From positions 368 through 64,367 of the forward strand of contig JAGQXQ010000110.1 in assembly GCA_020436535.1 (NCBI GenBank): a DNA stretch of 64,000 nt, in the 5' to 3' direction. Below, piece by piece: positions 19,195 to 52,039 of this stretch; position 1 is the first letter of the stretch, and each line of letters opens with the position of its first letter. This DNA comes from Phaeodactylibacter sp. (GTDB lineage: Bacteria > Bacteroidota > Bacteroidia > Chitinophagales > Saprospiraceae). Under the pieces are notes generated by a model, which did not search any database, was not told where the DNA came from, and was given only the letters and a program-made list of their open reading frames with translations. The position numbers were made by a program, and so were the translations under genes.

Positions 19195-19213
19195 GGTCAG
19201 AATTTTTAGAAAT

Positions 19214-22200: not shown

Positions 22201-22318
22201 CGCCAATGAGCGTCTCATTGGTTTCTGCATCAGTCACCGTCCCCGTAATCGTCCGCTGGGCGTACGAGAACTGCAGGCCAAACAGCAAACAGCCTAGTGT
22301 GAGTAATTTAATTCTCAT
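19214..22318 (-). CDS. SusC-family TonB-dependent outer-membrane transporter
   Basis: 1034 aa. Signal peptide, then a carboxypeptidase-regulatory-like N-domain (ITGTVTDAETNETLIGANIVV...DFDGNFSLEV). Plug region LDEVVVVGYTTQRKADLTGAV...RGVG. Terminal aromatic residue ...FGLSLTF. Paired with SusD. Confidence 0.9.
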   Translation of the reverse strand: MRIKLLTLGCLLFGLQFSYAQRTITGTVTDAETNETLIGANIVVTGTSSGTVTDFDGNFSLEVPEDAASLTISYTGYTPQQVSIEGVNSLNVALSSGTVLDEVVVVGYTTQRKADLTGAVTAVDIKEVETLPAGNAMKNLQGRIPGVNITANGNPNSTANVRIRGVGLGRLGFNNPLYVVDGIPTISGMHELNPNDIESLQVLRDAASASIYGSRAANGVIIITTKKGRAGQVRVNLRANVSAENFSYEVNPLNTEQRAAVVWQAAVNDGTNPNNASPLYRYDWNGDFNNPQLNKILLPEFIDGRRTMNPANTDWFDEITQTSVLQDYNLAVSNSSERGQYYLSGGYYNHQGVVKESQFERYTVRLNSDYNIIPGMLKIGENLTLTNQQANQVNDLAEGAIGLSIEQQTIVPIRTADGLGWGGPTGGITDRDNPVRLIEMNKDNTSNFNKVLGNLFVELTPLPGLNLRSSFGVEYNFFYNRNFRKAFTAGSLNFEDRLSTFNNRYGNWVWSNTATYHLNLANRHDFNFLAGTESIKYNAESFEGVAQGFASQDRDFAFLSQGTTGQLVNGGGDSWALQSYFGKVDYVYNNTLLLSGTVRRDGSSRFGSNNRWGVFPAASAGIRISELIDVNAISDLKVRASWGQNGNQEISTLAQYAIFAPRYATTSLFGGANQDNGTAYDINGADQGTLPSGFARIQSANPDLKWETSTQTNFGVDFSLLDYKLYGSVDYFTKETKDILTTTVPLATEGEGAQRIVNGGTVENSGLEFLLGYQGKIGKLRLDISGNLSTAKNEVIALPEEVVNSFPGNGQDKTILGRSVNSVYGFIFDGIFQNQGEVDDHATQSGAAPGRIRYMDLNNDGEINDEDQDFFAIFDNPDFIYGMNFNIAYKGFDLAVFFQGVSGGEIRNGWKLFTDFTSLNVGSNYGGRTLEAWSPQNPNSSIPALTLVDNNNEARESSYYWEPGSYLKLRNLTLGYTPPESLIKRFGMQNARFYVQGQNLLTIKPSETIAQDPEAPSATFPVPQRVTFGLSLTF

Positions 22319-41977: not shown

Positions 41978-42247
41978 ATGAATATTACATTCGAGGAGCT
42001 GCGAGCCATCAAGCACAAGCTGCCTACCGGCAGCATTCACAGAATTGCCAAAGAATTGAACCTGAGCGAGCAGACCGTACGCAACTATTTTGGAGCCAAT
42101 AAATTCGGCGAAGGCGATATTGCAGATAAACACATCCAACCAGGGCCCCATGGTGGTATAGTTCATCTGGAGGATACCAGCATCCTGGAAGCGGCAAAAA
42201 AAATATTGACAGAAACTGAATCCGAATTGCAGAAAGAAGAGAGCTGA
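41978..42247 (+). CDS. Small (89 aa) putative helix-turn-helix DNA-binding protein
   Basis: HTH-like stretch SIHRIAKELNLSEQTVRNYF. Acidic C-terminal tail. ATG start. Followed directly by a strong terminator. Confidence 0.5.
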   Translation: MNITFEELRAIKHKLPTGSIHRIAKELNLSEQTVRNYFGANKFGEGDIADKHIQPGPHGGIVHLEDTSILEAAKKILTETESELQKEES

Positions 42248-42260
42248 CGAAAGTCAAAAA

Positions 42261-42297
42261 GAAAAACGGGAAATGATCGGTTCATTTCCCGTTTTTC
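42261..42297. terminator. Bidirectional Rho-independent terminator between convergent genes
   Basis: 16-bp perfect stem gaaaaacgggaaatga / tcatttcccgtttttc (42261-42276 / 42282-42297), 5-nt loop. An A-run lies upstream and a T-run downstream, so it can function on both strands. Confidence 0.75.
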
Positions 42298-42324
42298 TTT
42301 TACCTGCTTCCTATTTGTCAATAG

Positions 42325-43056
42325 CTACATCTTTAAATAAAATTCTCCCGCCAGCTTAATATACTCCTCTGTCCAGGCATTTCTCTTTTTGTGCTGAATG
42401 ACAAGGCTGCCTCTTTCCACTGTTTTGGCCTGCCGCTCGAATTGCATGAGCAGGCGCTCTACAGGCTTATCCTTTGTAGGCATTACTTCCGTTACCCGGG
42501 TACAGTTTAAATGGTAATCTTGAGACAACTCCTGGAAACGAAGGCCTTCAATGTAGGGCAACACAAGGCAAAACCGCCCCTGTGGCGACAGCAAGCTGCG
42601 TACCGCCGATAAAAGGTCTCCGTGAGGAAGCTTTACAGTATGTCGTACGCTATTGCGGTCCTGGTTGTGCGAAAAGGTGCCTCCGGAGAAAAAAGGCGGA
42701 TTACTGACGATCAGGTCATAATGAGTGGAAGCAGACCGGGCATAGTCCTGAATAGCCATATTAAAGACCTGCAGGCGCCCGGCCCAGGGGGATGCCTCCA
42801 TGTTTTCGCGGGCCTGCCCGGCCGCAGTTTGGTCTACTTCTACAGCATGGATATTGGCCTGTGCCGCTCTTTGAGCCAGCATAATGGCAATGAGGCCACT
42901 TCCCGTCCCCACATCCAGGATGTGAGCAGTACTTTCCGTATCAGCCCAGGCGCCAAGAAGCACGCCATCAGTGCCTACCTTCATCGTGCATCGGTCCTGA
43001 TGGATCGTGAATTGCTTGAAGTAAAAGGGCTTCGCTTTTTTCTCTGGCATGGTCAT
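42325..43056 (-). CDS. trmN6: tRNA1(Val) (adenine37-N6)-methyltransferase (YfiC/TrmN6 type)
   Basis: 243 aa. FKQFTIHQDRCTMKVGTDGVLLGAWA. SAM motif ILDVGTGSGLIAIMLAQR. Catalytic NPPF in IVSNPPFF. Confidence 0.8.
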   Translation of the reverse strand: MTMPEKKAKPFYFKQFTIHQDRCTMKVGTDGVLLGAWADTESTAHILDVGTGSGLIAIMLAQRAAQANIHAVEVDQTAAGQARENMEASPWAGRLQVFNMAIQDYARSASTHYDLIVSNPPFFSGGTFSHNQDRNSVRHTVKLPHGDLLSAVRSLLSPQGRFCLVLPYIEGLRFQELSQDYHLNCTRVTEVMPTKDKPVERLLMQFERQAKTVERGSLVIQHKKRNAWTEEYIKLAGEFYLKM

Positions 43057-43090
43057 AACTCAAATATACGCTTAAAAAACTGGTTACTTG

Positions 43091-43126
43091 ACAAATCCGG
43101 TGATTCGAACTGGCCACCGGATTTGT
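43091..43126. repeat. 12-bp perfect inverted repeat (hairpin) at the left edge of the AT-rich block
   Basis: acaaatccggtg (43091-43102) and caccggatttgt (43115-43126) are exact reverse complements with a 12-nt loop. It lies in the divergent spacer between trmN6 and the LTD gene. Confidence 0.45.
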
Positions 43127-43300
43127 TAAAGAAGGAAAACACTACTGTTCTACATCGCAGTAAGCCTATGTCATTTTTGAGGCAAAACATAAGCTTAACA
43201 GGCTCTGTATATCTTTTAAAATCAAAAATCACTACCTTTGTTTTCCTGTTTTTGAGATTTATATCTATAATTTTTTCTTAAAATCTTAAATGCCAAGTAA

Positions 43301-44446
43301 ATGAATAAACTCTTACCATTTTTTTGCCTTTTGTTATTCGCTGTGACCGCAAATGCACAGTGTGATGACCTTTTTTTCTCAGAGTACGTTGAAGGATATG
43401 CCAATAATAAGGCGTTAGAAATCTATAACCCAACAGATGCCGCCATCAATCTTTCTAGCTACTCTATCGTTCGTTTCTCAAACGGTAGCACAACCGCTGG
43501 AAGCGATAAGGTCATATCATTACCAAATGAGATGTTGGAAGCAGGTGATGTTTTTGTAGTAGTAGTTGACTTGACAGATACAATGGACTGGGACTCTCAA
43601 TTTGATAAGCCAGCCTGGAATGGTTACAATCTTATTGACACCATTTTTGATGCGGTAACGGGAGAAGTCGTCATAGATGAAGAAACAGGAGAGCCATTAT
43701 TGGGCCCTCAGTACCAGGATGGGAATGCTCTTTTTGGAACAGAATACAATGAAAAATATGATCTTCAATGCAAAGCTGACGCTTTCCTTTGCCCCGATTA
43801 TGAAACGAATAATGCCATGTATTTTAATGGAAATGATGCAATGGCACTGATAACAGGAACTACTATAGCAACTGATGGGTCTAATATTCTGGACGTTATC
43901 GGTGTTATAGGAGAAAACCCAGAGAATTGGAGTATGCCCCAAGATGCTTGGATTACTGAAGATGGGGGATGGATTACTAAAGATAAGACTATTGTTAGAA
44001 ATGCTAATGTTATGACTGGTAGAAATACATTATCTGACGTAATTTCTTCTTTGGGCGGTAGTTTTGTAGGAGAAGAATGGACTATCTATGGGAAAAACGA
44101 TTTTAGCTACCTGGGTATACACAAGAGTGGATGTCATCCAGAACAGGAATCTGTTCAGTATAGCTGTATAACCGGAGCAGTGTCAGGTACATCAGTCATC
44201 AATGCGATCGAATTTAAAGTTTATCCTAATCCAAATAGTGCTGGATCTCTTGATATCCAAGCTGATGAAAATATTGATAGAGTTGAAATTGTAAATCTAA
44301 TGGGACAAACAGTCTTGGCAGAAAATTACAACTATTCGCAGTCAGCAGTATCTTTTAGTTTGGGATCAATTGCGAAAGGAGTTTATGTTGTTAAGGTGCA
44401 TTTCGCTGACAACATGATCTCGACTCAGAAATTAATCGTACAGTAA
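43301..44446 (+). CDS. Secreted lamin-tail-domain (LTD) protein with T9SS C-terminal sorting domain
   Basis: 381 aa. Signal peptide MNKLLPFFCLLLFAVTANAQ. LTD signature as in the N-termini of ExeM/NucH-type extracellular nucleases: DLFFSEYVEGYANNKALEIYNPT...LSSYSIVRFSNG, then later YFNGNDAMALI...ILDVIGVIGENPENW...KTIVRN. C-terminus FKVYPNPNSAGSLDIQ...KGVYVVKVHF...QKLIVQ is T9SS-CTD-like. Confidence 0.75.
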   Translation: MNKLLPFFCLLLFAVTANAQCDDLFFSEYVEGYANNKALEIYNPTDAAINLSSYSIVRFSNGSTTAGSDKVISLPNEMLEAGDVFVVVVDLTDTMDWDSQFDKPAWNGYNLIDTIFDAVTGEVVIDEETGEPLLGPQYQDGNALFGTEYNEKYDLQCKADAFLCPDYETNNAMYFNGNDAMALITGTTIATDGSNILDVIGVIGENPENWSMPQDAWITEDGGWITKDKTIVRNANVMTGRNTLSDVISSLGGSFVGEEWTIYGKNDFSYLGIHKSGCHPEQESVQYSCITGAVSGTSVINAIEFKVYPNPNSAGSLDIQADENIDRVEIVNLMGQTVLAENYNYSQSAVSFSLGSIAKGVYVVKVHFADNMISTQKLIVQ

Positions 44447-44458
44447 AGACTTTGAATA

Positions 44459-44489
44459 CAGGGTAGAGCAGTTGTATGGCTCTACCCTG
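44459..44489 (+). terminator. Intercistronic hairpin (weak terminator/attenuator candidate) between the LTD gene and the TonB-dependent receptor gene
   Basis: 11-bp stem cagggtagagc / gctctaccctg with a 9-nt loop. No T-tract follows. Confidence 0.3.
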
Positions 44490-44563
44490 TACCATTGAAG
44501 AATAACTTATTCCCCTTCTTTCTAGGCCTTCTAAAGATCACTTTCTCCTATTACTTAACACAA

Positions 44564-47173
44564 ATGAAGCTAATGAATAAGGCCATAATTTGGAGTGTTT
44601 GTTTATGTTTTTTTAGCTCTGTACTGTTAGGACAAAAAAGTACTTTATCAGGAGTCGTTACAGATGAAACTTCTGGCGACGTACTTATTGGCGCCACCAT
44701 TACCGTTGGAACCACAGGTGCAGTTACAGATTTAAATGGAAAATATTCTCTGGATTTGGAGAATGGCGAGTACAGTATTAAGTATTCTTATGTTGGATAC
44801 GCTACTCAAGACATCAATGTAAGTATGCGCGGAGACCAAACGATCGATGTCGCGATGAGGTCTAGTTTGGTGCTGGAAGAAGTTGTAGTGACTGCCGATA
44901 TTGCCATCGAAAGAGAAACGCCTGTCGCTTTTTCCAATATACCCAGTATAAAAATTGAAGAAGAGCTAGCAACCCAGGATATTCCAATGCTATTGAACTC
45001 TACGCCAGGGGCCTATGCAACAGAAGCCGGCGGAGGTGATGGAGATGCCCGAATTTCGATCCGGGGGTTCGACCAAAGATACGTAGCTGTGATGTTGGAT
45101 GGCATTCCCGTTAATGATATGGAAAACGGAGAGGTGTACTGGTCTAATTGGTTTGGTTTAGACTTAGTAACCCAAACCATGCAAGTCCAAAGAGGATTAG
45201 GAGCTTCTAAAATATCAATACCTGCGGTTGGTGGTACCATTAATATTCTCACTAAGGGGATCGATGCTAAAAAAAGCCTTAGAATCAGGCAAGAAGTTGG
45301 CAATAATGGCTACCTGAGAACAACGCTAGGCTTGACTACCGGAAGGCTCAAAAATGGTTGGGGCGTTTCCCTAGCCTCATCATATAAACAAGGTGACGGT
45401 TGGGTAGACGGTAATTTTACGCAAGGCTTTTTCTATTACGCCAGAATTGATAAGCAGTTAGGGAACCATTTATTAAGTGTTACGGGCTTTGGTGCGCCTC
45501 AAAAACATGGGCAAAGGCCGTTTTCGGCAGAAGCAGGTTTGGTGGATACCGCTTATGCGCTTAGCATAGGGGTTCCGCAGTCTGCTATCGAGGAATTGAG
45601 CATAAAAAATAAAGGCCGCCGATTTAATGATGCCTGGGGATACAGAGATGGAAAGTTATTAAATACCCGACAAAATTATTACCACAAACCTCAATTTAGT
45701 CTTCGTCATAGTTGGCAGGCAAGTGATAAATTGTTTTGGTCGAATATTGCCTATTTATCTATTGGTGATGGTGGAGGTGTAGCTCCGGAAGGTGCTTCTA
45801 TACCAAAAACGGAAGATGATCAACTAGATATAGAGCAAACTATTTTAAATAATCAGCCTACTCTTTTTAATCCTGATGGCATTTCAAATACCATCCTTAG
45901 GTCGAACAGGAATAATCATTTCTGGTATGGTATCCTATCGACACTACGTTATAATATAAATGCAAATATGACTTTGTCAGGAGGCGTTGATGGCCGGTCT
46001 TATGATGGTGATCATTTTAGAGAAGTATATGATTTGCTAGGTGGCTCGGGCTGGCAAGAAGGACAAGTGTCGCCTAACAGTCCCGTTTATCAAGTGGGCG
46101 ATAAATATGAGTATAATTATACCGGTAAAGTACGCTCTATGGGGGCGTTCGGATTGTTAGAGTTCAAAAAAAATCGCTGGGCTTCCTTTGTGAATTTATC
46201 AGTAGCGAATGCTAAATATGGTTTTGTGAATAATTTCACAAAATTCGAACTCCCATTTGTTGATGTGCAAACTTATACCGCTAAATTAGGTGCAACCTAT
46301 AAGTTTAATACACAAAACAGCCTGTTTTTTAACACCGGGATTTTGAATAAAGCACAGCCCTACAGAAACGTCATCATAACCAACTTCTGGGCAACTGACG
46401 TCGATGCACAAGTGGCCAATAACTATGAAAACGAAGATATTCGGGCTTTCGAAGTCGGGTATAGTTACAAAAGCAGGCGTTTTTCTGCTAACGTGAATAC
46501 TTATTATACCATTTGGGGCAACAAACCTTTAGATCGCTTACCGACGATAGCCGAAGATGAAAGCGACCCGGAATCAGATCGGATACCGGTTAATATTCCG
46601 GGTATTGATGCCCTGCATAAAGGCATTGAAATTGACTTTGCATTCAAACCTATACCTAATTTATCTATTGAAGGCTTAGCATCGATTGGTGATTGGACAT
46701 GGCAATCTGGAGAGACCGTTAAAGGTGTATTGCCTAATGGTGTTGCTTATACTTATGAGTTTGATGCTGCTGGCGTACATGTTGGTGATGCTGCTCAATT
46801 TCAGATTGGCGGACAGGTTAGGTATGAGCCCATCAAAGATTTTTATGTAAAATTGAATACGACATTTTTTGATAATAATTATGCTGATTTTCAACCAGAA
46901 AACCTTCAGGGTGATAATGGCGGAAGAGAATCCTGGCGAATGCCTTCTTATTATCTGTCTTCTTTCCACACGGGCTACTTTTTCAAATGGAATAAAGTGG
47001 CTATGAACGTTCGACTCAATGTATTGAATGTATTTGATGCTTTGTATTTGACGGATGCCAGAGATAATGATGATTTCAATTCACCAAGTTTTAATGACTT
47101 TGATGCAAAATCTGCTTCTGTGTTTTATGGACAGGGACGCCGGTGGAGCTTATCATTGCAGGCTAGTTTTTAA
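44564..47173 (+). CDS. TonB-dependent outer-membrane receptor (CarboxypepD_reg N-domain + plug + barrel), no SusD partner
   Basis: The track start at 44495 is TTG. The signal peptide MKLMNKAIIWSVCLCFFSSVLLGQ starts at ATG 44564. N-domain LSGVVTDETSGDVLIGATITV...DLNGKYSLDL. Plug region RISIRGFDQRYVAVMLDGIPVND. C-terminal ...WSLSLQASF ends in a terminal Phe. Confidence 0.85.
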   Translation: MKLMNKAIIWSVCLCFFSSVLLGQKSTLSGVVTDETSGDVLIGATITVGTTGAVTDLNGKYSLDLENGEYSIKYSYVGYATQDINVSMRGDQTIDVAMRSSLVLEEVVVTADIAIERETPVAFSNIPSIKIEEELATQDIPMLLNSTPGAYATEAGGGDGDARISIRGFDQRYVAVMLDGIPVNDMENGEVYWSNWFGLDLVTQTMQVQRGLGASKISIPAVGGTINILTKGIDAKKSLRIRQEVGNNGYLRTTLGLTTGRLKNGWGVSLASSYKQGDGWVDGNFTQGFFYYARIDKQLGNHLLSVTGFGAPQKHGQRPFSAEAGLVDTAYALSIGVPQSAIEELSIKNKGRRFNDAWGYRDGKLLNTRQNYYHKPQFSLRHSWQASDKLFWSNIAYLSIGDGGGVAPEGASIPKTEDDQLDIEQTILNNQPTLFNPDGISNTILRSNRNNHFWYGILSTLRYNINANMTLSGGVDGRSYDGDHFREVYDLLGGSGWQEGQVSPNSPVYQVGDKYEYNYTGKVRSMGAFGLLEFKKNRWASFVNLSVANAKYGFVNNFTKFELPFVDVQTYTAKLGATYKFNTQNSLFFNTGILNKAQPYRNVIITNFWATDVDAQVANNYENEDIRAFEVGYSYKSRRFSANVNTYYTIWGNKPLDRLPTIAEDESDPESDRIPVNIPGIDALHKGIEIDFAFKPIPNLSIEGLASIGDWTWQSGETVKGVLPNGVAYTYEFDAAGVHVGDAAQFQIGGQVRYEPIKDFYVKLNTTFFDNNYADFQPENLQGDNGGRESWRMPSYYLSSFHTGYFFKWNKVAMNVRLNVLNVFDALYLTDARDNDDFNSPSFNDFDAKSASVFYGQGRRWSLSLQASF

Positions 47174-47211
47174 CGAACTTATTAGGTACTATACATTAAA
47201 CAAAATATAAA

Positions 47212-49425
47212 ATGCTTAGAATATTACTTTCCCTTCTTGTCTCTTTAAGCTTTAGCTTAACTTATGCTCAGGATGATATAGCAGATGCAAGAAGCATGCC
47301 TCAAGGCACCACAGTGACCATACAGGGAATTGCAACCAATGGTGACGGTTTAGGAATTATCAGATATATACAAGATGAGACAGGAGCTATAGCTGTATAT
47401 CCAGGAACGGGATCTGCAGCTGGTTTTCCTGACGCTGTGGATAGAGGTGACCTGATAGAAGTAACAGGTGTCCTTAAGGATTATAATGGATTGCTCGAAA
47501 TAGATCCGGTGATGTCATTTAATGTAATCTCTTCGAATAATCCATTGCCAGCGGCTTTGGTGACTACGCCAGGTGGCATAGGCGAAGCTACCGAAGCTAG
47601 ATTACTTCAAATCAATGGTGTTAATTTCACAGCTGGTGGTAGTTTGTTCTCCGTTGGAAATTATGAATTCACAGCTAATGGAGAAACGTCAGAAATTTAT
47701 GTTCGTACAGGCCACAGTTTGATTGGAACTGAAATTCCTTTAGCTACCGTTAACCTAACCGGCATAGCATCCCAGTTCAATTCAATCTATCAATTGTTAC
47801 CTAGAGACGTTAACGATTTAGAGATCGCCGACGATTTTTATTTGACATCTGCTCCAGCTCAAACCAATCTTTCAACAAATGGTTTTACAGTGAGCTGGGA
47901 AACGAACGTAGCCGCCAATTCAACTATTCGATACGGTACATCAGCAACTAATCTGGATCAAATGCTTGATGAGCCCGCTCTAACAACTACCCATAGCTTG
48001 GATGTTACAGGCCTGGAACCAGCTACTTTCTACTATGTTGAAGTGTCTTCCAATAATGGGACATCAACAGTGACATCGACGCAGAAAATTTTCAGTACTG
48101 CTTCTACTTCTTCTGGTACCATGAAAATATACTTTACTGGCGGCGTTGACCCAAGCTATTCAACGGGTAGTTTCCCTACCGGAACAACAGGTGCGGCAAT
48201 TGAGGGTGAAATCATTAATAGGATAAATGCGGCTCAAGTTTCTATTGATTGCGCTATATACAATATCAACAGAACGACAATTGTTGCTGCCTTGACGGCT
48301 GCTCATAATAGAGGTGTTGTCGTCAGATATGTTGCAGATAATGAGACCGCTAACCTGGCACTGCAAAACCCTGTTCCGCCATTTGGCATACTAAGAGGAA
48401 ATCCAGATGGATTAATGCACAATAAGTTTTTTGTATTTGATGCAGATGATAATGATAATTCATGGGTGATGACGGGTTCTACCAACATGACAGATAATAA
48501 CCTGGCAACTGATTTTAATAGCACGGTCTTTATTCAAGACAAGGCATTGGCTAAGGCCTATACCTTAGAATTTGAAGAAATGTGGGGTACAGATGGCCCT
48601 TCACCAGGCGTTTTTAGTGTGTTATTTGGAGCAGATAAGACCAATAATACCCCCCACACGTTTTTAGTCAATGATATACTCATGGAATCTTATTTCTCCC
48701 CTTCGGATAATACAACTATTGGTATTGCTAAAGCAATTGAAAGTGCAGACACCGATCTTCAATTTGCATTGTTGGTATTTACAAATAATGAACTAGGAAC
48801 CGCAGTGTTAAGCGAGCACAATAGCGGTGTTGCGGTACGTGGAATTATCGATCAAGTGAATAGCCAGGGATCTGAATTTGACTATTTAGTCAATCAGGGT
48901 GTCAATGTAACAGAAGATAATAATGTTGTTCAGACCCACCACAAATACTGTATTATTGATGCGACCGATGTAAATTCTGACCCACAGGTTGTTTTGGGGT
49001 CACACAACTGGTCGGCTGGAGCAGAAAATAGTAATGATGAAAATACATTGATTGTTCACGATGCAAATGTTGCCAACATATACTTACAGGAATTTGAAGC
49101 GAGGTGGTGTGAAGCGCAAGGTAGCCCGGATTGTGCTACAACCGATGTTGACGAGCAAAATGTAATTGAAGGGGTTGCGTTAGAAATCTATCCAAACCCT
49201 GCGCGTACTAGTACAACGGTCAATATCAATCTAGAGAAAAAAGAAAACCTGGTTTTGAGTTTGCTCGATTTTAGAGGCATTTTCCTGCAGAGCATCGTTG
49301 TGAACAATGTACAAGGCCAGCATACTGAATCTTTGGATGTTCAGGCGCTACCCGCTGGCCAATACATTATTCAGTTACAAATTGGAGAGGAACAGATGTC
49401 ACGGATCATTCAGGTCGTGAAGTAA
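47212..49425 (+). CDS. Secreted phospholipase-D/nuclease-superfamily protein (two HKD motifs) with N-terminal OB-like domain, FN3-like domain and T9SS C-terminal sorting domain
   Basis: 737 aa. Signal peptide MLRILLSLLVSLSFSLTYAQ. The N-terminal segment TVTIQGIATNGDGLGIIRYIQDETGAIAVY...GDLIEVTGVLKDYNGLLEIDP resembles the OB-like domains of extracellular nucleases. FN3-like segment GFTVSWETNVAANSTIRYG...ATFYYVEV. HKD motif 1 HNKFFVFD...GSTN. HKD motif 2 HHKYCIID...GSHNWSAGAENSNDEN. C-terminus LEIYPNPARTSTTVNI...GQYIIQLQI...IIQVVK. Confidence 0.8.
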   Translation: MLRILLSLLVSLSFSLTYAQDDIADARSMPQGTTVTIQGIATNGDGLGIIRYIQDETGAIAVYPGTGSAAGFPDAVDRGDLIEVTGVLKDYNGLLEIDPVMSFNVISSNNPLPAALVTTPGGIGEATEARLLQINGVNFTAGGSLFSVGNYEFTANGETSEIYVRTGHSLIGTEIPLATVNLTGIASQFNSIYQLLPRDVNDLEIADDFYLTSAPAQTNLSTNGFTVSWETNVAANSTIRYGTSATNLDQMLDEPALTTTHSLDVTGLEPATFYYVEVSSNNGTSTVTSTQKIFSTASTSSGTMKIYFTGGVDPSYSTGSFPTGTTGAAIEGEIINRINAAQVSIDCAIYNINRTTIVAALTAAHNRGVVVRYVADNETANLALQNPVPPFGILRGNPDGLMHNKFFVFDADDNDNSWVMTGSTNMTDNNLATDFNSTVFIQDKALAKAYTLEFEEMWGTDGPSPGVFSVLFGADKTNNTPHTFLVNDILMESYFSPSDNTTIGIAKAIESADTDLQFALLVFTNNELGTAVLSEHNSGVAVRGIIDQVNSQGSEFDYLVNQGVNVTEDNNVVQTHHKYCIIDATDVNSDPQVVLGSHNWSAGAENSNDENTLIVHDANVANIYLQEFEARWCEAQGSPDCATTDVDEQNVIEGVALEIYPNPARTSTTVNINLEKKENLVLSLLDFRGIFLQSIVVNNVQGQHTESLDVQALPAGQYIIQLQIGEEQMSRIIQVVK

Positions 49426-49431
49426 TAACCC

Positions 49432-50733
49432 ATGGCAATCGACAAAAAACCGTTAGAACTCAGCCCCGATTTCAAATACGCGCTAGACCGGATCGAAAAG
49501 CAAGAGCAGAATGTGTTCATCACAGGGAGGGCCGGCACCGGCAAATCTACCTTGTTGCAGCTGTACCGCAACACTACCCGCAAGAAAGTCGTCGTTCTGG
49601 CCCCTACCGGCATCGCCGCGCTGAATGTGAAGGGACAGACCATCCATTCTTTCTTTGGTTTCCCGCCCCGGCCGCTGGCCCTCTCCGAAATAAAAAAACG
49701 CCGCAATCGCCGGTTGTATCAAAATATGGAAGTGTTAGTCATCGATGAGATTTCCATGGTACGAGCCGACCTGCTGGACAACATCGACTGGTTTCTGCGC
49801 ATCAACCGGGATGTCCCGTTGCCTTTTGGCGGCGTACAGGTTGTGTTCTTTGGCGACTTGTTTCAATTGCCCCCGGTAGTTGCCAACGATCTGGAAGCCA
49901 TGCGATTCCAGTCGGAATACGACTCGCCTTATTTCTTTTCCGCCCGTGCCATGCAGGAAGATGTTTTTGTTATGGAAAAGATGGAGCTGCAAAAAGTATA
50001 CCGGCAGGAAAACCGCCATTTTCTCCGCCTGTTGGAAGCTGTGCGGCTGAACCGCGTCGATTACGATGACCTGGAAGACTTAAATAACCGCTGCCTGCCC
50101 CAATTTGAACCAGAAGATTTCTACATCACCCTCTCCGCCCGAAACGCCACCGTCGACTCTATCAACAACAAAGAACTGGGGCAGATTCCTTTGCCGGAAA
50201 GGCTCTATCTAGCCAGCACCACCGGCAATTTCAATCCCAAGCTCTACCCTACCGAGCCGGCGCTGCGGCTCAAACTCGGCGCTCAGGTCATGTTCATCAA
50301 GAATGACCCGGAGAAACAGTTCGTCAACGGCACTATCGGTATGGTCGTGGATATGGACGATAACACGATTACGGTTACCGTACAGGAAGAAGGCGGGCAG
50401 ATCCGCCGCATTGAAGTCGGCCCAATGGAGTGGGAAATACTGCGCTACCAACCCAGCCTTACTGATCCTGATAAGATCGAAACGGAAACCATTGGCACTT
50501 TCCGGCAATTTCCAATAAAACTGGCATGGGCTATCACCATCCATAAATCTCAGGGTAAGACCTTCGACAAGGCCATCATCGACCTTGGCCGGGGCGCTTT
50601 CGAACACGGGCAGGCCTATGTGGCCCTCAGCCGTTGCCGCAGCCTGGAGGGTATCGTGCTGAAACAACCGATCCGAATGCAGGATATCATTACCGACGAG
50701 AAGGTAGTCGAGTACTATGAATCACACTTTTGA
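49432..50733 (+). CDS. pif1: Pif1-family (RecD-like, SF1B) ATP-dependent DNA helicase
   Basis: 433 aa. Walker A GRAGTGKSTLL. Walker B LVIDEISMV. FGDLFQLPPV. Late SF1B motifs AITIHKSQGKTFD and YVALSRCRSLEGIVL. The size and motifs match compact bacterial Pif1 helicases. Confidence 0.85.
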   Translation: MAIDKKPLELSPDFKYALDRIEKQEQNVFITGRAGTGKSTLLQLYRNTTRKKVVVLAPTGIAALNVKGQTIHSFFGFPPRPLALSEIKKRRNRRLYQNMEVLVIDEISMVRADLLDNIDWFLRINRDVPLPFGGVQVVFFGDLFQLPPVVANDLEAMRFQSEYDSPYFFSARAMQEDVFVMEKMELQKVYRQENRHFLRLLEAVRLNRVDYDDLEDLNNRCLPQFEPEDFYITLSARNATVDSINNKELGQIPLPERLYLASTTGNFNPKLYPTEPALRLKLGAQVMFIKNDPEKQFVNGTIGMVVDMDDNTITVTVQEEGGQIRRIEVGPMEWEILRYQPSLTDPDKIETETIGTFRQFPIKLAWAITIHKSQGKTFDKAIIDLGRGAFEHGQAYVALSRCRSLEGIVLKQPIRMQDIITDEKVVEYYESHF

Positions 50734-50824
50734 CGCTAAGAACTTCCTTAAAAAAGAACCTTTCCTGTAGTTTTTACGTCAAAGAGTCAGGCAGTATTGA
50801 TTTAAATTTGAGAAAAACAAATAT

Positions 50825-52039
50825 ATGGCACGCCGAGACATTCCCAATCCCACGGGATCCAGAAATACACTAAGGGCCTTTTTACTCATTGTGGCCTTTA
50901 GCCTGATCGCCATCATCCTTTATAAAAAGTACGTCTCGCCTCCCGGTTACTCTAATATACCCAAAGAGCTACAGGTCAATTATGTCCCTTCCGACTTCAA
51001 GATCAACATCGATGAAGAGAATGCCCTGGCGATCTTATCCAACCCGCATCGTTACCGGAAGGAATTCAACAATTTGGTGTACGACATCAACCTGTCCATC
51101 CTTTATCATGTCGCCAACCGCATGGGCCTCAGTGAGGAGGATAAAGGGCGATTGCAGGAAGAATATGAAAAACACCACCCCTACCTGCGCAACCTCTATT
51201 TCCATGATTTTGTGGCGTTGAAGGATACCACCTCCAACCTATACCAGACCTGGTACGATAATGAAGGCTCCAATGCCATCGAAGTACTAAAGGAAGTGGC
51301 AGCCAAGTATACCTGCTTTCTGGTCACACAGATCATGACTACACTAGTGCCCACCAAAGGGGGGAGTATTTATGCCAAGGGACAAAGTGTGGATACGCCC
51401 TGTGGTGTGGCCATGCAGGAAGCACTCAATCCTTTGCTGAGCCGCCTTAAGGAAAGAGCCGCCATAGAGGATTTCAGCCGGTCCCGGGGCTTGCTGCAGG
51501 AAAAAGTGGAAAAAGCGATCGCCGAATTGGCCACCATGGAAGTAAGGGATAAAAAGGGATTGAATAAACAACTGCAAACCAGGGTATTAGGCTTTGCTGT
51601 TTCCTCTTCCGATATAGAGGTATCCGCCATTAGCATATTAAAAGTCGGTTTTCGCCTGACCGATTACTTCGACATCAGCCTGAATCCCAAACTGGGCATC
51701 GTCACCGTCACTTTACCCGAACCGACGATCCTGTCTCACGAGGTTTATCCCAAGATCGACAAGCTGGATATTGGCTGGATGCGCGAAGTAAAAAGTATCG
51801 ACCTCAACAAGAACTTCAATGCACTTCGCGGGGAATTCCGCAGGGAAGCGCTGGACAGCGACATCATGGACAAGGCCAAAACGCAGGCCATCGAATTGAT
51901 GAATACCATGTTCACCCCGGCTATCAAGGGGATGAACAACCGGTATAACCTGAGGGTGCAATTCCGGCAGGTAACGGAACAGCAGGAGTTCAACCCCGAA
52001 TATTCCTCTTCAACGTATGATTACGAAAACAAAGATTAA
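50825..52039 (+). CDS. Membrane-anchored hypothetical protein, C-terminal half DUF4230-like
   Basis: 404 aa. A single N-terminal TM segment, LRAFLLIVAFSLIAIILY. The C-terminal segment ...ISILKVGFRLTDYFDISLNPKLGIVTVTLPEPTILSHEV... resembles the DUF4230 pattern, which is recalled rather than verified. Confidence 0.55.
   Translation: MARRDIPNPTGSRNTLRAFLLIVAFSLIAIILYKKYVSPPGYSNIPKELQVNYVPSDFKINIDEENALAILSNPHRYRKEFNNLVYDINLSILYHVANRMGLSEEDKGRLQEEYEKHHPYLRNLYFHDFVALKDTTSNLYQTWYDNEGSNAIEVLKEVAAKYTCFLVTQIMTTLVPTKGGSIYAKGQSVDTPCGVAMQEALNPLLSRLKERAAIEDFSRSRGLLQEKVEKAIAELATMEVRDKKGLNKQLQTRVLGFAVSSSDIEVSAISILKVGFRLTDYFDISLNPKLGIVTVTLPEPTILSHEVYPKIDKLDIGWMREVKSIDLNKNFNALRGEFRREALDSDIMDKAKTQAIELMNTMFTPAIKGMNNRYNLRVQFRQVTEQQEFNPEYSSSTYDYENKD

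What the first reader, a model, noticed from the sequence alone, without database searches (positions are those of the whole stretch)
43057..49431. AT-rich three-gene block: secreted LTD protein + SusD-less TonB-dependent receptor + secreted double-HKD PLD/nuclease. Candidate extracellular DNA/phosphodiester scavenging system
Seen: three same-strand genes are separated by 117 and 38 nt. My hand counts of sampled 60-nt lines give roughly 30-48% G+C inside the block and roughly 52-62% in the flanking trmN6 and pif1 genes. The shift at the right edge is abrupt, within about 10 nt of 49430. The two flanking proteins have signal peptides and T9SS CTDs, and the middle gene is an outer-membrane TonB-dependent transporter. 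Established: lamin-tail domains and OB-like N-domains are hallmarks of ExeM/NucH-type extracellular nucleases. The HKD superfamily includes Nuc-type DNases as well as phospholipases. TBDRs import scarce substrates. Inference: this looks like a self-contained module to bind a polyanionic substrate (eDNA, or possibly teichoic-acid or phospholipid head groups), cleave it extracellularly and import the products. It was likely acquired horizontally. I know of no characterised system with this gene trio.
Basis: partly seen in the sequence, partly recalled or inferred. Interest (0 to 1): 0.72.

Follow-up and report, generated by a model that had tools for sequence, protein, structure and literature searches.

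The report
Imported DNA-capture, nuclease and transporter operon
This is a three-gene outer-membrane module, probably used to catch, cut and import extracellular DNA: an untested, widespread variant of the DNA-uptake loci recently described in other Bacteroidota, and this Phaeodactylibacter genome took its copy from a Lewinella-like relative.

Summary
Three co-directional genes occupy 43301-49425. They encode an LTD + T9SS-CTD protein, a SusD-less TonB-dependent transporter (TBDR), and a protein of DUF5689 + fn3-like domain + two intact HKD domains + T9SS-CTD.

The block has 40.3% G+C against 49.5% elsewhere. GC3 is 0.32-0.35 against 0.586±0.037 (z about -7), while GC2 is normal.

The trio is conserved in order in at least 21 loci from Saprospiraceae, Flavobacteriales and Bacteroidales, including cultured Lewinella cohaerens.

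The N-domain of the HKD protein is DUF5689. That is the proposed DNA-binding partner (DdbD) of the TBDR DdbC in the B. thetaiotaomicron ddbABCDEF DNA-utilization locus (PNAS 2025), and part of the Riemerella natural-transformation pair (2021). The window's TBDR is a full-length homologue of TBDRs that sit beside standalone DUF5689 proteins and nucleases. The HKD domains are closest to Nuc, NucT, Zucchini and PLD3/4 nucleases.

My best reading is a T9SS-adapted Ddb-like variant with the DNA-binding module fused to an HKD nuclease. Function is inferred, not shown.

Horizontal acquisition is strongly supported. The block is 82% identical in DNA (TBDR 89% in protein) to Lewinella cohaerens, while the adjacent TrmN6 is only 48-50% identical. 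The copy lies inverted between the trio's usual neighbours, with sharp junctions.

Verdict: a new variant of a known kind, of moderate interest.

The parts
42325..43056 (-). Left flank: trmN6 (tRNA m6A37 methyltransferase). Native composition; not part of the module.
   Evidence: NF047853 E 7e-79 (265 bits, below the 350-bit cut-off). GC3 0.574. Only 48-50% aa identity to the TrmN next to the Lewinella trio.
43088..43129 (-). 15-nt-arm palindrome followed (on the - strand) by T6. Possibly the leftover terminator of a replaced resident PLD gene that once read into trmN6.
   Evidence: Repeat I11. RNA fold -21.7 kcal/mol, z -3.9. It has no counterpart in the aligned Lewinella-group upstream regions. 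L013 has an analogous hairpin between PLD and trmN6. The relic reading is inference.
43155..43300 (+). Imported upstream region of the operon, with the left junction at about 43150-43160. The core 43161-43258 is conserved and contains a Bacteroidota -7-like TAnnTTTG motif (TACCTTTG, 43233-43240).
   Evidence: blastn gives 90-92% identity to L. cohaerens-type loci over 98 nt, higher than the 82% in the coding DNA. Alignment A3. No Rfam match. Promoter assignment is by eye only.
43301..44446 (+). Secreted lamin-tail-domain protein with a T9SS type A CTD (MCB0564013.1). No catalytic domain found. Proposed surface accessory or DNA-binding protein.
   Evidence: PF00932 45.9 bits, PF18962, TIGR04183, and a partial match to the LTD part of ExeM. 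AF2 model pLDDT 75; Foldseek found only Ig-like folds and T9SS CTDs. It lies directly upstream of the TBDR in all 21 trio loci.
44564..47173 (+). SusD-less TonB-dependent transporter (MCB0564014.1). It has a signal peptide, a CarboxypepD_reg N-domain, a TonB-box-like LEEVVVTA (aa 104-111), a plug and a divergent barrel.
   Evidence: Pfam. Full-length homology to TBDRs paired with DUF5689/DUF5017 proteins: L027 23% identity, E 3e-46; L045 33%; Aureibacter L099 phmmer 1.7e-43 covering both plug and barrel. The window's own SusC matches only aa 10-168.
47212..49425 (+). Secreted multidomain HKD nuclease candidate (MCB0564015.1), 737 aa.
   Evidence: Pfam and NCBIfam. PDB sequence hits: Zucchini 3e-15, Nuc 8e-11. 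AF2 model pLDDT 83; Foldseek top hits include PLD3/PLD4. More than 1000 homologues share this architecture.
47275..47826 (+). DUF5689 domain (aa ~22-205) of the nuclease: two five-stranded beta units. Proposed DNA-binding and transporter-docking module.
   Evidence: PF18942 35.1 bits, cut-off 28.6. Secondary structure of the model. phmmer hit to the Aureibacter DUF5689 protein. DdbD is a DUF5689 protein with a p202-like DNA-binding fold, as stated in PMC12478041.
48199..49119 (+). Two HKD (PLDc_2) catalytic domains. The motifs are H403-x-K405-x4-D410 (48418-48441) and H576-x-K578-x4-D583 (48937-48960).
   Evidence: The motif residues are invariant in a 28-sequence alignment. PLDc_2 matches in two stretches.
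49186..49422 (+). T9SS type A C-terminal sorting domain of the nuclease.
   Evidence: PF18962 41.6 bits; TIGR04183 37.6 bits.
49426..49431 (.). Right junction of the imported segment: the 6-nt spacer TAACCC between the PLD stop and the pif1 ATG.
   Evidence: Homology to the Lewinella loci ends at the TAA stop. The pif1 N-terminus is intact relative to homologues.
49432..50733 (+). Right flank: pif1-family helicase. Native composition. It now lacks its own upstream region.
   Evidence: PF05970 E 7e-31. GC3 0.654. In six relatives (L002, L005-L007, L011, L012) pif1 lies divergently upstream of the LTD gene instead.

Best explanation
WHAT IT IS. The block is a three-gene operon for handling extracellular nucleic acid at the cell surface. 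It is a T9SS-adapted variant of the Bacteroidota 'TonB-dependent transporter + DUF5689 + secreted nuclease' loci, namely ddbABCDEF of B. thetaiotaomicron and the Riemerella RA0C_RS04915/04920 pair.

PROPOSED MECHANISM (inferred).
- The LTD protein and the HKD enzyme cross the inner membrane by Sec. The type IX secretion system then places them on or near the cell surface through their C-terminal sorting domains.
- The tandem-beta DUF5689 domain at the N-terminus of the HKD enzyme binds DNA and docks on the SusD-less transporter. It would play the role that the separate DdbD protein is proposed to play for DdbC.
- The two HKD domains form one Nuc-like active site and cut the bound DNA (or RNA).
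- The TonB-energised barrel imports the resulting oligonucleotides or single strands into the periplasm. Further processing is encoded elsewhere.
- The LTD protein is an accessory substrate-binding or tethering factor, comparable to DdbE or SusE/F.

WHAT IS SHOWN HERE.
- Domain content and intact catalytic motifs.
- Conservation of the gene order across classes.
- Homology of the transporter to DUF5689-partnered transporters.
- Nuclease-clade affinity of the HKD domains.

ORIGIN OF THIS COPY. It is xenologous. A ~6.27-kb segment (about 43155-49425) came from a Lewinella cohaerens-like donor. It sits between pif1 and trmN6, the usual neighbours of this locus, in the opposite orientation to all relatives.
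For: ARCHITECTURE..

HKD DOMAINS. The HKD motifs are invariant. The nearest solved sequences are Zucchini/MitoPLD (3e-15) and Nuc (8e-11). The best NCBIfam hits are the NucT models. The AF2 model (pLDDT 83) matches the PLD3/PLD4 ssDNA exonucleases, then Zucchini, Nuc and NucT.

LINK TO DNA SYSTEMS. DUF5689 is matched above Pfam's cut-off. DdbD (DUF5689) is proposed to be the DNA-binding partner of the TBDR DdbC in a locus shown genetically and biochemically to deplete DNA (PMC12478041). The Riemerella TBDR and its DUF5689/DUF5017 protein are essential for transformation (PMC8459023).

ALTERNATIVE LOCUS CONTENTS.
- Between pif1 and PLD-trmN6, Lewinellaceae carry a homologous TBDR plus a standalone 2xDUF5689 protein (441 bits), followed by the PLD gene (L027, L030, L048).
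- Aureibacter pAT2 carries a PGAP-annotated TBDR + 2 DUF5689 + endonuclease + 2 EEP nucleases. Its TBDR matches the window's over both plug and barrel.
- The window's own SusC matches only the N-terminus.
- L058 encodes one protein with LTD + DUF5017 + DUF5689 fused, next to a trio.

CONSERVATION. The trio is conserved in 21 loci from three classes.

HORIZONTAL TRANSFER.
- GC3 z about -7 with normal GC2.
- 82% nucleotide identity over 6.2 kb to L085/L001, ending at the stop codon.
- TBDR 89% identical to L. cohaerens WP_020535704.1. The window's copy nests inside the Lewinella group: window-L097 89%, L097-L087 79%.
- TrmN6 only 48-50% identical to the Lewinella TrmN, but 60-61% to Saprospiraceae whose trio is only 55-58% identical.
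- Another Phaeodactylibacter MAG has TBDR-PLD with GC3 of 0.51-0.54 and 61-65% identity.
- In other genomes the trio's G+C stays within about 4 points of its flanks.
Against: - No member of this trio has been assayed. Nuclease rather than phospholipase activity is inferred only from sequence and fold neighbours, and the top Foldseek hit is an entry titled 'phospholipase D' (7e0m).
The family link rests on intermediates.
- DUF5689 here is fused to the enzyme rather than being a separate lipoprotein, so docking on the barrel is conjecture. No complex model could be made.
- The role of the LTD protein is unknown. LTD deletion only reduced ExeM activity (PMC6085458).
- No periplasmic nuclease, nucleotidase or nucleoside transporter lies beside the trio.
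- In L. cohaerens itself the trio's GC3 is also somewhat below its flanks, so the ultimate source lineage is not settled.
Confidence: 0.65

Rival explanations
1. The same machinery serves natural transformation rather than nutrition. The transporter would thread DNA across the outer membrane, as proposed for Riemerella RA0C_RS04915/04920. The HKD enzyme would trim or convert dsDNA to ssDNA at the entry site, as proposed for the HKD nuclease NucT in Helicobacter pylori transformation.
For: The TBDR + DUF5689 pair is essential for transformation in Riemerella. The best NCBIfam hits of the HKD domains are the NucT models. The Ddb authors regard the two functions as evolutionarily linked. The NucT role in H. 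pylori transformation is from my own knowledge, not from a tool result.
Against: No ComEC, DprA or ComF gene is near the trio in the 64-kb window. A nuclease fused to the DNA-binding module fits degradation better. PLD-only loci without a transporter are common. Competence is not known in Saprospiraceae (my knowledge).
Confidence: 0.15
2. The secreted nuclease mainly remodels extracellular DNA in a biofilm or floc matrix, or defends against it, as shown for BT3563 in bile-induced B. thetaiotaomicron biofilms. Import would be secondary.
For: The homologous BT3560-3563 operon (TBDR, hypothetical protein, two nucleases) was first found through a biofilm phenotype that depends on DNase activity (PMC8851478). 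Saprospiraceae are attached or epiphytic floc bacteria.
Against: Tight, class-wide linkage of the nuclease to a TonB-dependent importer argues that uptake is part of the function. The biofilm phenotype in B. thetaiotaomicron was attributed mostly to one nuclease.
Confidence: 0.1
3. The HKD protein is a true phospholipase or other phosphodiesterase acting on phospholipid head groups, teichoic acids or polyphosphate, and the transporter imports those products. DNA is not the substrate.
For: The HKD superfamily includes phospholipases, cardiolipin and phosphatidylserine synthases and PPK1. Foldseek also returns 7e0m ('phospholipase D'), PssA and PPK1. Public annotations call the homologues 'cardiolipin synthase-like'.
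Against: The significant sequence matches are to the nuclease clade: Nuc, NucT and Zucchini. The cardiolipin synthase model reaches only E 1e-3. Each HKD domain is of the compact ~130-140-aa Nuc size. The fused DUF5689 domain and the neighbouring alternatives (DUF5689 proteins, endonuclease and EEP nucleases) all point to nucleic acid.
Confidence: 0.07
4. The low G+C is not due to transfer. It would reflect gene-specific codon usage or the amino-acid composition of secreted and outer-membrane proteins in a vertically inherited locus.
For: In L. cohaerens the trio's GC3 (0.32-0.35) is also lower than that of its neighbours (0.38-0.48).
Against: GC2 is normal, and other secreted or outer-membrane genes in the window (SusC, SusD, CTD proteins) have GC3 of 0.55-0.63. 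In other genomes the trio's G+C stays within about 4 points of its flanks. Identity to Lewinella is 82-89% for the trio against 48-50% for the adjacent TrmN6. A congeneric MAG has a version with GC3 of 0.51-0.54.
Confidence: 0.03

Closest known systems
ddbABCDEF DNA-utilization locus of Bacteroides thetaiotaomicron (BT3560-3563 region; Sharan et al., PNAS 2025, PMC12478041)
   Same: Both have a SusD-less TonB-dependent transporter with a CarboxypepD_reg N-domain, encoded next to a DUF5689 module and secreted nucleases. Both follow PUL-like logic: surface binding, extracellular cleavage, then import. Subtypes are exchanged between strains without tracking taxonomy, which parallels the xenologous replacement seen here.
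   Different: The window has three genes rather than six. DUF5689 is fused to the nuclease instead of being a separate DdbD protein. The nuclease is a double-HKD (PLD-superfamily) enzyme; neither 'PLD' nor 'phospholipase' appears as a word in the paper. Surface delivery is by T9SS CTDs rather than lipoprotein signals. An LTD protein is present, and there is no periplasmic nuclease gene.
Riemerella anatipestifer natural-transformation pair RA0C_RS04915 (CarboxypepD_reg outer-membrane protein) and RA0C_RS04920 (DUF5689 + DUF5017) (PMC8459023)
   Same: Both have an adjacent TBDR-like barrel and a DUF5689-containing surface protein. The Lewinellaceae loci between pif1 and PLD-trmN6 (L027, L030, L048) have exactly this pairing upstream of the same PLD nuclease.
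   Different: The Riemerella system was shown to act in transformation, not degradation. Its partner protein is non-catalytic. The window's transporter is only about 23% identical to the type paired with standalone DUF5689 proteins.
ExeM/NucH extracellular nucleases (Shewanella, Vibrio, Aeromonas; PMC6085458)
   Same: Both combine an N-terminal lamin-tail domain with OB-like nucleic-acid-binding domains and an extracellular nuclease function. The LTD protein matches the LTD part of the ExeM model.
   Different: In ExeM all the domains are in one polypeptide, with an EEP catalytic domain and a GlyGly-CTERM anchor. Here the LTD is on a separate non-catalytic protein and the nuclease is HKD-type. 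The ExeM model score is 69.7 against a 1300 cut-off.
HKD nucleases: Nuc (pKM101/Salmonella), NucT (H. pylori), Zucchini/PLD6, PLD3/PLD4
   Same: The catalytic motif is the same HxK(x)4D. These are the best sequence matches (Nuc, NucT, Zucchini) and fold matches (PLD3/4). Like PLD3/4, the window's enzyme has two HKD domains in one chain.
   Different: Nuc, NucT and Zucchini are single-domain homodimers of about 150-200 aa. None carries DUF5689, fn3 or T9SS CTD domains, and none is encoded with a TonB-dependent transporter. NucT equivalog scores are far below their cut-offs.
SusC/SusD polysaccharide-utilization loci
   Same: Both have an outer-membrane TonB-dependent importer co-encoded with surface binding and hydrolytic proteins. 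A canonical fructan PUL lies in the same window for comparison.
   Different: The trio has no SusD. Its barrel is not recognised by PF00593 and is homologous to SusC only in the N-terminal ~170 aa. The enzyme is a phosphodiesterase, not a glycoside hydrolase.

Membership tests
Ddb-type DNA-utilization / DNA-uptake loci (DdbC-DdbD; Riemerella RS04915-RS04920) | Transporter is a DdbC/RA0C_RS04915-family TBDR (CarboxypepD_reg + plug + barrel, no SusD). | tested here: inconclusive
   The architecture matches. There is full-length homology to TBDRs that sit beside DUF5689 proteins and nucleases: L027 E 3e-46, Aureibacter L099 1.7e-43 covering plug and barrel, and Phocaeicola L098 33% identity. Ordinary SusC matches only the N-terminus. 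The DdbC and RA0C_RS04915 sequences themselves were not obtainable, so there was no direct comparison.
Ddb-type DNA-utilization / DNA-uptake loci | A DUF5689 protein encoded directly next to the transporter. | tested here: met
   PF18942 scores 35.1 bits (cut-off 28.6) in the gene 38 nt downstream of the TBDR. The domain is fused to a nuclease rather than standing alone, which is the variant feature.
Ddb-type DNA-utilization / DNA-uptake loci | Secreted nuclease(s) in the locus. | tested here: inconclusive
   The protein has a signal peptide and a T9SS CTD, two intact HKD motifs, and nearest relatives that are nucleases. Enzymatic activity was not tested.
Ddb-type DNA-utilization / DNA-uptake loci | Locus required for DNA depletion or uptake. 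| not testable with these tools
   This needs genetics or biochemistry. Lewinella cohaerens DSM 23179 carries the trio and is a candidate organism.
PLD superfamily (HKD) | Two HxK(x)4D motifs forming one active site. | tested here: met
   H403/K405/D410 and H576/K578/D583 are invariant in 28 sequences. PLDc_2 matches twice, 136.8 bits.
NucT / Nuc equivalogs (NCBIfam PRK13912) | Score above the equivalog cut-off; single HKD domain of about 170 aa. | tested here: not met
   The best score is 51.8 bits against a cut-off of 297. The window's protein has two domains and 737 aa. It is related to these enzymes but is not a member.
ExeM/NucH extracellular exonuclease (NF033680) | LTD + OB + EEP nuclease in one protein, with a score above the cut-off. 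| tested here: not met
   The score is 69.7 bits against a cut-off of 1300, and only the LTD portion aligns. No EEP domain is present.
SusC/SusD PUL | SusC-like TBDR with an adjacent SusD-family lipoprotein. | tested here: not met
   No SusD family hit occurs in the trio or in any trio locus. The window's real SusCD pair is at 17482-22318.
T9SS type A cargo | C-terminal sorting domain (TIGR04183 / PF18962) above the cut-off, plus an N-terminal signal peptide. | tested here: met
   The LTD protein scores 41.8 bits and the PLD protein 37.6 bits against a cut-off of 23. Foldseek matches the LTD protein's C-terminus to the RemA CTD.
Horizontally acquired segment | Atypical synonymous composition, phylogenetic incongruence with the flanks, and defined junctions. 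| tested here: met
   No integrase, transposase, tRNA target or terminal repeats were seen in the 42000-51000 region, so it is not a recognisable mobile element.

The most novel reading that the evidence does not exclude
The trio may be a distinct, self-sufficient outer-membrane DNA-import machine, widespread in environmental Bacteroidota. In it, an HKD exonuclease docks through its own DUF5689 domain onto a TonB-dependent barrel and feeds single strands or oligonucleotides through it, with the LTD protein as a new class of surface DNA receptor. The locus may also behave as a swappable cassette. Around the same pif1 and trmN6 neighbours, different lineages carry PLD alone (trmN6 only), TBDR + DUF5689 + PLD, or LTD + TBDR + PLD. 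Whole cassettes would be replaced between genera, as here from Lewinella to Phaeodactylibacter. That mirrors the strain-level mutual exclusivity of ddb subtypes in gut Bacteroidales and hints at diversifying selection on DNA-uptake specificity.
Probability: 0.3. Interest if true: 0.7.

Novelty: new variant of a known kind. Interest (0 to 1): 0.52.

Why it matters
Extracellular DNA is a large pool of phosphorus, nitrogen and carbon in sediments, flocs and the sea, and Bacteroidota are repeatedly implicated in its turnover. How they take it across the outer membrane was described only recently, and only for gut Bacteroides and Riemerella.

This trio extends that principle in three ways:
- to marine and freshwater Saprospiraceae, Flavobacteriales and environmental Bacteroidales;
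- to a different nuclease class (HKD);
- to T9SS-delivered rather than lipoprotein components.

The natural fusion of DUF5689 to a nuclease is independent genomic support for the idea that DUF5689 handles DNA at the transporter.

The trio occurs in a cultured strain, Lewinella cohaerens DSM 23179, so the predictions can be tested. The clean, inverted, cross-genus replacement is also a neat example of cassette exchange at a conserved locus.

Tried and rejected
1. Direct comparison with DdbC, DdbD or RA0C_RS04915 was not possible.
- The papers give only accession numbers, and no supplementary files are held.
- My third homologue search, seeded with a Bacteroidales TBDR (L045), returned only relatives of at least 67% identity. 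None came from Bacteroides, Phocaeicola or Riemerella.
- The Phocaeicola TBDR I found (WP_165933237.1) is not one of the accessions named in the paper, at least among the cluster members read.

2. Searches around the block found few sequence signatures.
- No terminal inverted repeats lie at the block edges.
- No integrase, transposase or tRNA gene was seen among the genes scanned in or next to the block; no dedicated tRNA scan was run.
- The block and its upstream region have no Rfam match.

3. The LTD protein gave nothing beyond LTD and CTD.
- The PDB sequence search was empty.
- Foldseek on the AF2 model gave only generic Ig-like folds and T9SS CTD matches.
- A lenient Pfam scan added nothing.

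4. Plasmid search. The PLD protein hits only the small Nuc-like genes of enterobacterial plasmids, at 31-34% identity over about 45% of its length. No plasmid-borne copy of the trio was found.

5. Amino-acid composition as the cause of the low G+C is rejected, because GC2 is normal and only GC3 is shifted.

6. An ExeM/NucH or PUL classification is rejected on the membership tests.

7. The neighbourhoods of Lutibacter and Paludibacter type-B TBDRs show only a TBDR plus a partner without Pfam hits, so they were uninformative about nucleases.

Full report
OBSERVATION

Three co-directional ORFs occupy 43301-44446 (381 aa), 44564-47173 (869 aa from the ATG) and 47212-49425 (737 aa). The gaps are 117 and 38 nt.

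Pfam and NCBIfam give the following:
- Gene 1: lamin-tail domain plus a T9SS type A C-terminal sorting domain.
- Gene 2: CarboxypepD_reg plus Plug. There is no PF00593 hit and no adjacent SusD gene.
- Gene 3: DUF5689 (35.1 bits, cut-off 28.6), an fn3/Pur_ac_phosph_N-like domain, two PLDc_2 domains (136.8 bits) and a T9SS sorting domain.

The flanking genes are trmN6 (42325-43056, - strand) and a pif1-family helicase (49432-50733, + strand).

The block has 40.3% G+C against 49.5% for the rest of the window. It is the lowest of all 6.4-kb windows. The shift lies in synonymous sites. GC3 is 0.32, 0.35 and 0.34, against 0.586 +/- 0.037 in 29 other genes (z -6.4 to -7.2). GC2 is ordinary. Tetranucleotide distance also peaks over the block.

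WHOSE GENOME

The three proteins are identical to MCB0564013.1, MCB0564014.1 and MCB0564015.1 of a Phaeodactylibacter sp. MAG. Five further metagenome contigs carry the identical LTD gene, and every flanking gene they retain is in the same order.

CONSERVATION OF THE TRIO

The 737-aa HKD protein belongs to a large family of constant architecture. These come from Saprospiraceae, Lewinellaceae, Flavobacteriales, Bacteroidales, Hymenobacter, Adhaeribacter and others.

I mapped the window's proteins onto 84 fetched loci. The order LTD-TBDR-PLD is conserved in 21 of them:
- Saprospiraceae: L001, L002, L005-L008, L011-L013 (L017 is labelled only Bacteroidota).
- Flavobacteriales and Cryomorphaceae: L022 (labelled only Bacteroidota), L025, L033, L053.
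- Bacteroidales: L049, L051, L055, L058, L074.

It is also conserved in cultured Lewinella cohaerens DSM 23179 (L097). Conservation of order across classes, with short intergenic gaps, argues for an operon with a joint function.

WHAT THE PARTS ARE

(a) The HKD enzyme.
- Both HxK(x)4D motifs (H403/K405/D410 and H576/K578/D583) are invariant in a 28-sequence alignment.
- The only solved structures matched by sequence are Zucchini/MitoPLD (3e-15) and the Salmonella nuclease Nuc (8e-11).
- The best NCBIfam hits are the NucT models, all far below their equivalog cut-offs. The cardiolipin synthase model reaches only E 1e-3.
- An AlphaFold2 model (pLDDT 83, pTM 0.80) matches two-HKD single-chain enzymes. 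These are mostly the lysosomal ssDNA 5' exonucleases PLD3 and PLD4, followed by F13, PPK1, PssA, Zucchini, Nuc and NucT.
- A nuclease assignment is therefore the best supported. A phospholipase is not excluded.

(b) The N-terminal 'OB-like' region. It is Pfam DUF5689. In the model it forms two five-stranded beta units.

(c) The transporter. It has a signal peptide, a CarboxypepD_reg domain, a TonB-box-like LEEVVVTA, a plug and a divergent barrel.

(d) The LTD protein. It has no recognisable catalytic domain. Its model (pLDDT 75) matches only Ig-like sandwiches and T9SS CTDs. Residues are strongly conserved along its whole length.

LINK TO KNOWN SYSTEMS

A full-text search for DUF5689 found two directly relevant papers.

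- Sharan et al. (PNAS 2025, PMC12478041) show that B. thetaiotaomicron ddbABCDEF is required for depletion of exogenous DNA. The locus encodes three nucleases, the TonB-dependent transporter DdbC, the DUF5689 protein DdbD and one more surface protein. They propose that DdbD is the DNA-binding cap of DdbC, based on an AlphaFold3 interface and on similarity to the p202 DNA-binding domain. They also relate the locus to Riemerella.
- Huang et al. (2021, PMC8459023) show that RA0C_RS04915, annotated as a 'carboxypeptidase regulatory-like domain' outer-membrane protein, and RA0C_RS04920 (DUF5689 + DUF5017) are essential for natural transformation.
- The same B. thetaiotaomicron operon (BT3560-3563) had earlier been tied to an extracellular DNase needed for bile-induced biofilm (PMC8851478).

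I could not obtain the DdbC or RA0C_RS04915 sequences, so the link for the transporter is indirect. It is nevertheless consistent:

- In Lewinellaceae (L027, L030, L048), the stretch between pif1 and PLD-trmN6 holds a TBDR that is 23% identical to the window's over its full length (E 3e-46). It is followed by a standalone 2xDUF5689 protein (441 bits) and then the PLD gene.
- Bacteroidales (L045, L047, L078) and Phocaeicola massiliensis (L098) have a TBDR 33% identical over its full length, followed by a DUF5017 protein.
[quoted passage not shown] The window's TBDR matches that transporter across both plug and barrel (phmmer 1.7e-43).
- By contrast, the window's own SusC and other TBDRs match only the N-terminal ~170-270 residues.
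- In L058 a single 971-aa protein fuses LTD, DUF5017 and DUF5689 immediately upstream of a trio. This ties the LTD to the same functional context. LTD is also the N-terminal domain of the extracellular nuclease ExeM, where its deletion lowers activity (PMC6085458).

MECHANISM (INFERRED)

- The LTD protein and the HKD enzyme are exported by Sec and then by the T9SS, and are displayed on or released at the cell surface.
- The DUF5689 domain of the enzyme binds DNA and docks on the SusD-less barrel.
- The paired HKD domains cleave the DNA.
- TonB-energised transport brings oligonucleotides or single strands into the periplasm.
- The LTD protein assists in capturing or positioning the substrate.

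The steps shown here are domain content, motif integrity, gene linkage and homology to DNA-handling systems. Substrate, activity, docking and what is imported are all inference. I put this reading at about 0.65.

The rivals are:
- a Riemerella-like transformation role (0.15);
- matrix or biofilm eDNA remodelling (0.10);
- a non-nucleic-acid phosphodiester substrate (0.07).

HORIZONTAL ACQUISITION

Several lines of evidence agree.

- In other genomes the trio's G+C stays within about 4 points of its flanks. The largest gaps are +4.3 in L074 (only 633 nt of flank) and -4.0 in L019. Only the window shows a 9-point deficit.
- blastn aligns window 43270-49425 contiguously at 82% identity to the L. 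cohaerens-type loci L085 and L001, and the match ends at the PLD stop codon. A further 98 nt upstream (43161-43258) match at 90-92%.
- Protein identities to L. cohaerens-type loci are 82% (LTD), 89% (TBDR) and 85-86% (PLD). The adjacent TrmN6 is only 48-50% identical.
- Against Saprospiraceae such as L013 and L010 the pattern reverses: the trio is 50-58% identical and TrmN6 60-61%.
- The window's TBDR nests inside the Lewinella group. Window-L097 is 89% and window-L087 is 81%, while L097-L087 is 79%.
- Another Phaeodactylibacter MAG (L089) carries TBDR-PLD at 61-65% identity with GC3 of 0.51-0.54, which is native-like composition.

The GC3 of the window's copy equals that of the Lewinella copies despite 18% DNA divergence. 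This suggests an unsampled Lewinella-like donor rather than long residence (inference). In L. cohaerens itself the trio is somewhat AT-richer than its flanks, so the ultimate source is open.

POSITION AND ORIENTATION

In no other locus with these neighbours does the window's arrangement occur. Where pif1 is adjacent to a trio, it lies divergently upstream of the LTD/TBDR end. Where trmN6 is adjacent, it follows the PLD gene co-directionally. In the window it is the reverse: trmN6 faces the LTD gene, and pif1 starts 6 nt after the PLD stop.

The imported cassette therefore sits between its usual neighbours but inverted. Among trio loci no other contig shows both neighbours; some have pif1 and others trmN6. 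Only the Lewinellaceae TBDR + DUF5689 + PLD loci (L027, L030, L048) show both.

The junctions are sharp:
- The left junction lies at about 43150-43160.
- The right junction lies within the spacer TAACCC.

There are no terminal repeats or mobility genes. A stable hairpin plus T-run on the minus strand at 43088-43129 (-21.7 kcal/mol, z -3.9) lies just outside the left junction. It resembles the PLD-trmN6 intergenic hairpin of L013. It may be the terminator left behind by the displaced resident PLD gene, but this is speculative.

NOVELTY AND VERDICT

The claim that nothing comparable is characterised is out of date, because the TBDR + DUF5689 + nuclease principle is now known.

What is new is the variant:
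- an HKD nuclease carrying the DUF5689 module;
- a dedicated LTD protein;
- T9SS delivery;
- a three-gene format that is widespread in environmental Bacteroidota and present in a culturable strain.

I classify it as a new variant of a known kind, with interest of about 0.5.

Noticed in passing
window 1085-27901: A canonical fructan-type polysaccharide-utilization locus lies here. It has three GH32 enzymes, a SusC/SusD pair (19214-22318 and 17482-19194), a DUF4960 protein, and a hybrid two-component regulator with a periplasmic sugar-binding domain (25097-27901). Three FG-GAP/ASPIC (UnbV) proteins are interspersed. It served as the internal control for what a 'normal' SusC looks like.
   Followed up: partly
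window 43161-43258: The 98-nt non-coding stretch upstream of the LTD gene is 90-92% identical to Lewinella cohaerens-type loci, more conserved than the coding DNA (82%). It contains TACCTTTG (43233-43240), which resembles the Bacteroidota -7 promoter element. There is no Rfam match. It could be a promoter and regulatory region, or a leader.
   Followed up: partly
window 43088-43129 (- strand): A perfect-stem hairpin (15-nt arms, -21.7 kcal/mol, z -3.9) followed by T6 lies between the trmN6 start and the left junction of the imported segment. It has no counterpart in the aligned Lewinella-group upstream regions. It may be a relic terminator of the replaced resident gene.
   Followed up: partly
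window 49423-49434: The pif1 start codon lies only 6 nt after the PLD stop codon, so the helicase gene has lost its former divergent promoter region. It must now be read through from the imported operon or from a promoter inside the PLD gene.
   Followed up: no
L027 5124-12151; also L030 and L048: Between pif1 and trmN6, Lewinellaceae carry a different cassette: a distantly related TBDR (23% identity), a standalone 2xDUF5689 (+DUF5017-like) protein, and the same PLD nuclease. Other Saprospiraceae have PLD-trmN6 alone. The locus seems to accept alternative modules.
   Followed up: partly
L058 6-2921: A 971-aa T9SS protein fuses LTD, DUF5017, DUF5689 and a cadherin-like domain, immediately upstream of an LTD-TBDR-PLD trio in a Bacteroidaceae MAG. 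This domain fusion links LTD to the DUF5689 context.
   Followed up: partly
L099 7782-17122 (Aureibacter tunicatorum pAT2): A 295-kb replicon carries a fully annotated ddb-like array: a CarboxypepD_reg TBDR, two DUF5689 proteins, one endonuclease and two EEP nucleases. It is a useful reference locus from a cultured Cytophagales strain.
   Followed up: partly
L097 8662-14910 (Lewinella cohaerens DSM 23179): Even in the donor-like genome the trio's GC3 (0.32-0.35) is below that of its neighbours (0.38-0.48). In the lower-GC relative L087 it matches the flanks. The trio may have moved more than once within this group.
   Followed up: partly
window 42257-42301: A perfect 20-nt inverted repeat with a 5-nt loop lies between the unannotated 89-aa ORF (41978-42247) and the 3' end of trmN6. 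It is probably a bidirectional terminator.
   Followed up: no
L098 8959-13306 (Phocaeicola massiliensis): A gut Phocaeicola has a TBDR (WP_165933237.1) that is 33% identical to the window's over its full length, followed by a DUF5017 protein. It may correspond to the 'Pv-type' ddb loci of the 2025 paper, but the accession numbers did not match among the cluster members that were read.
   Followed up: partly
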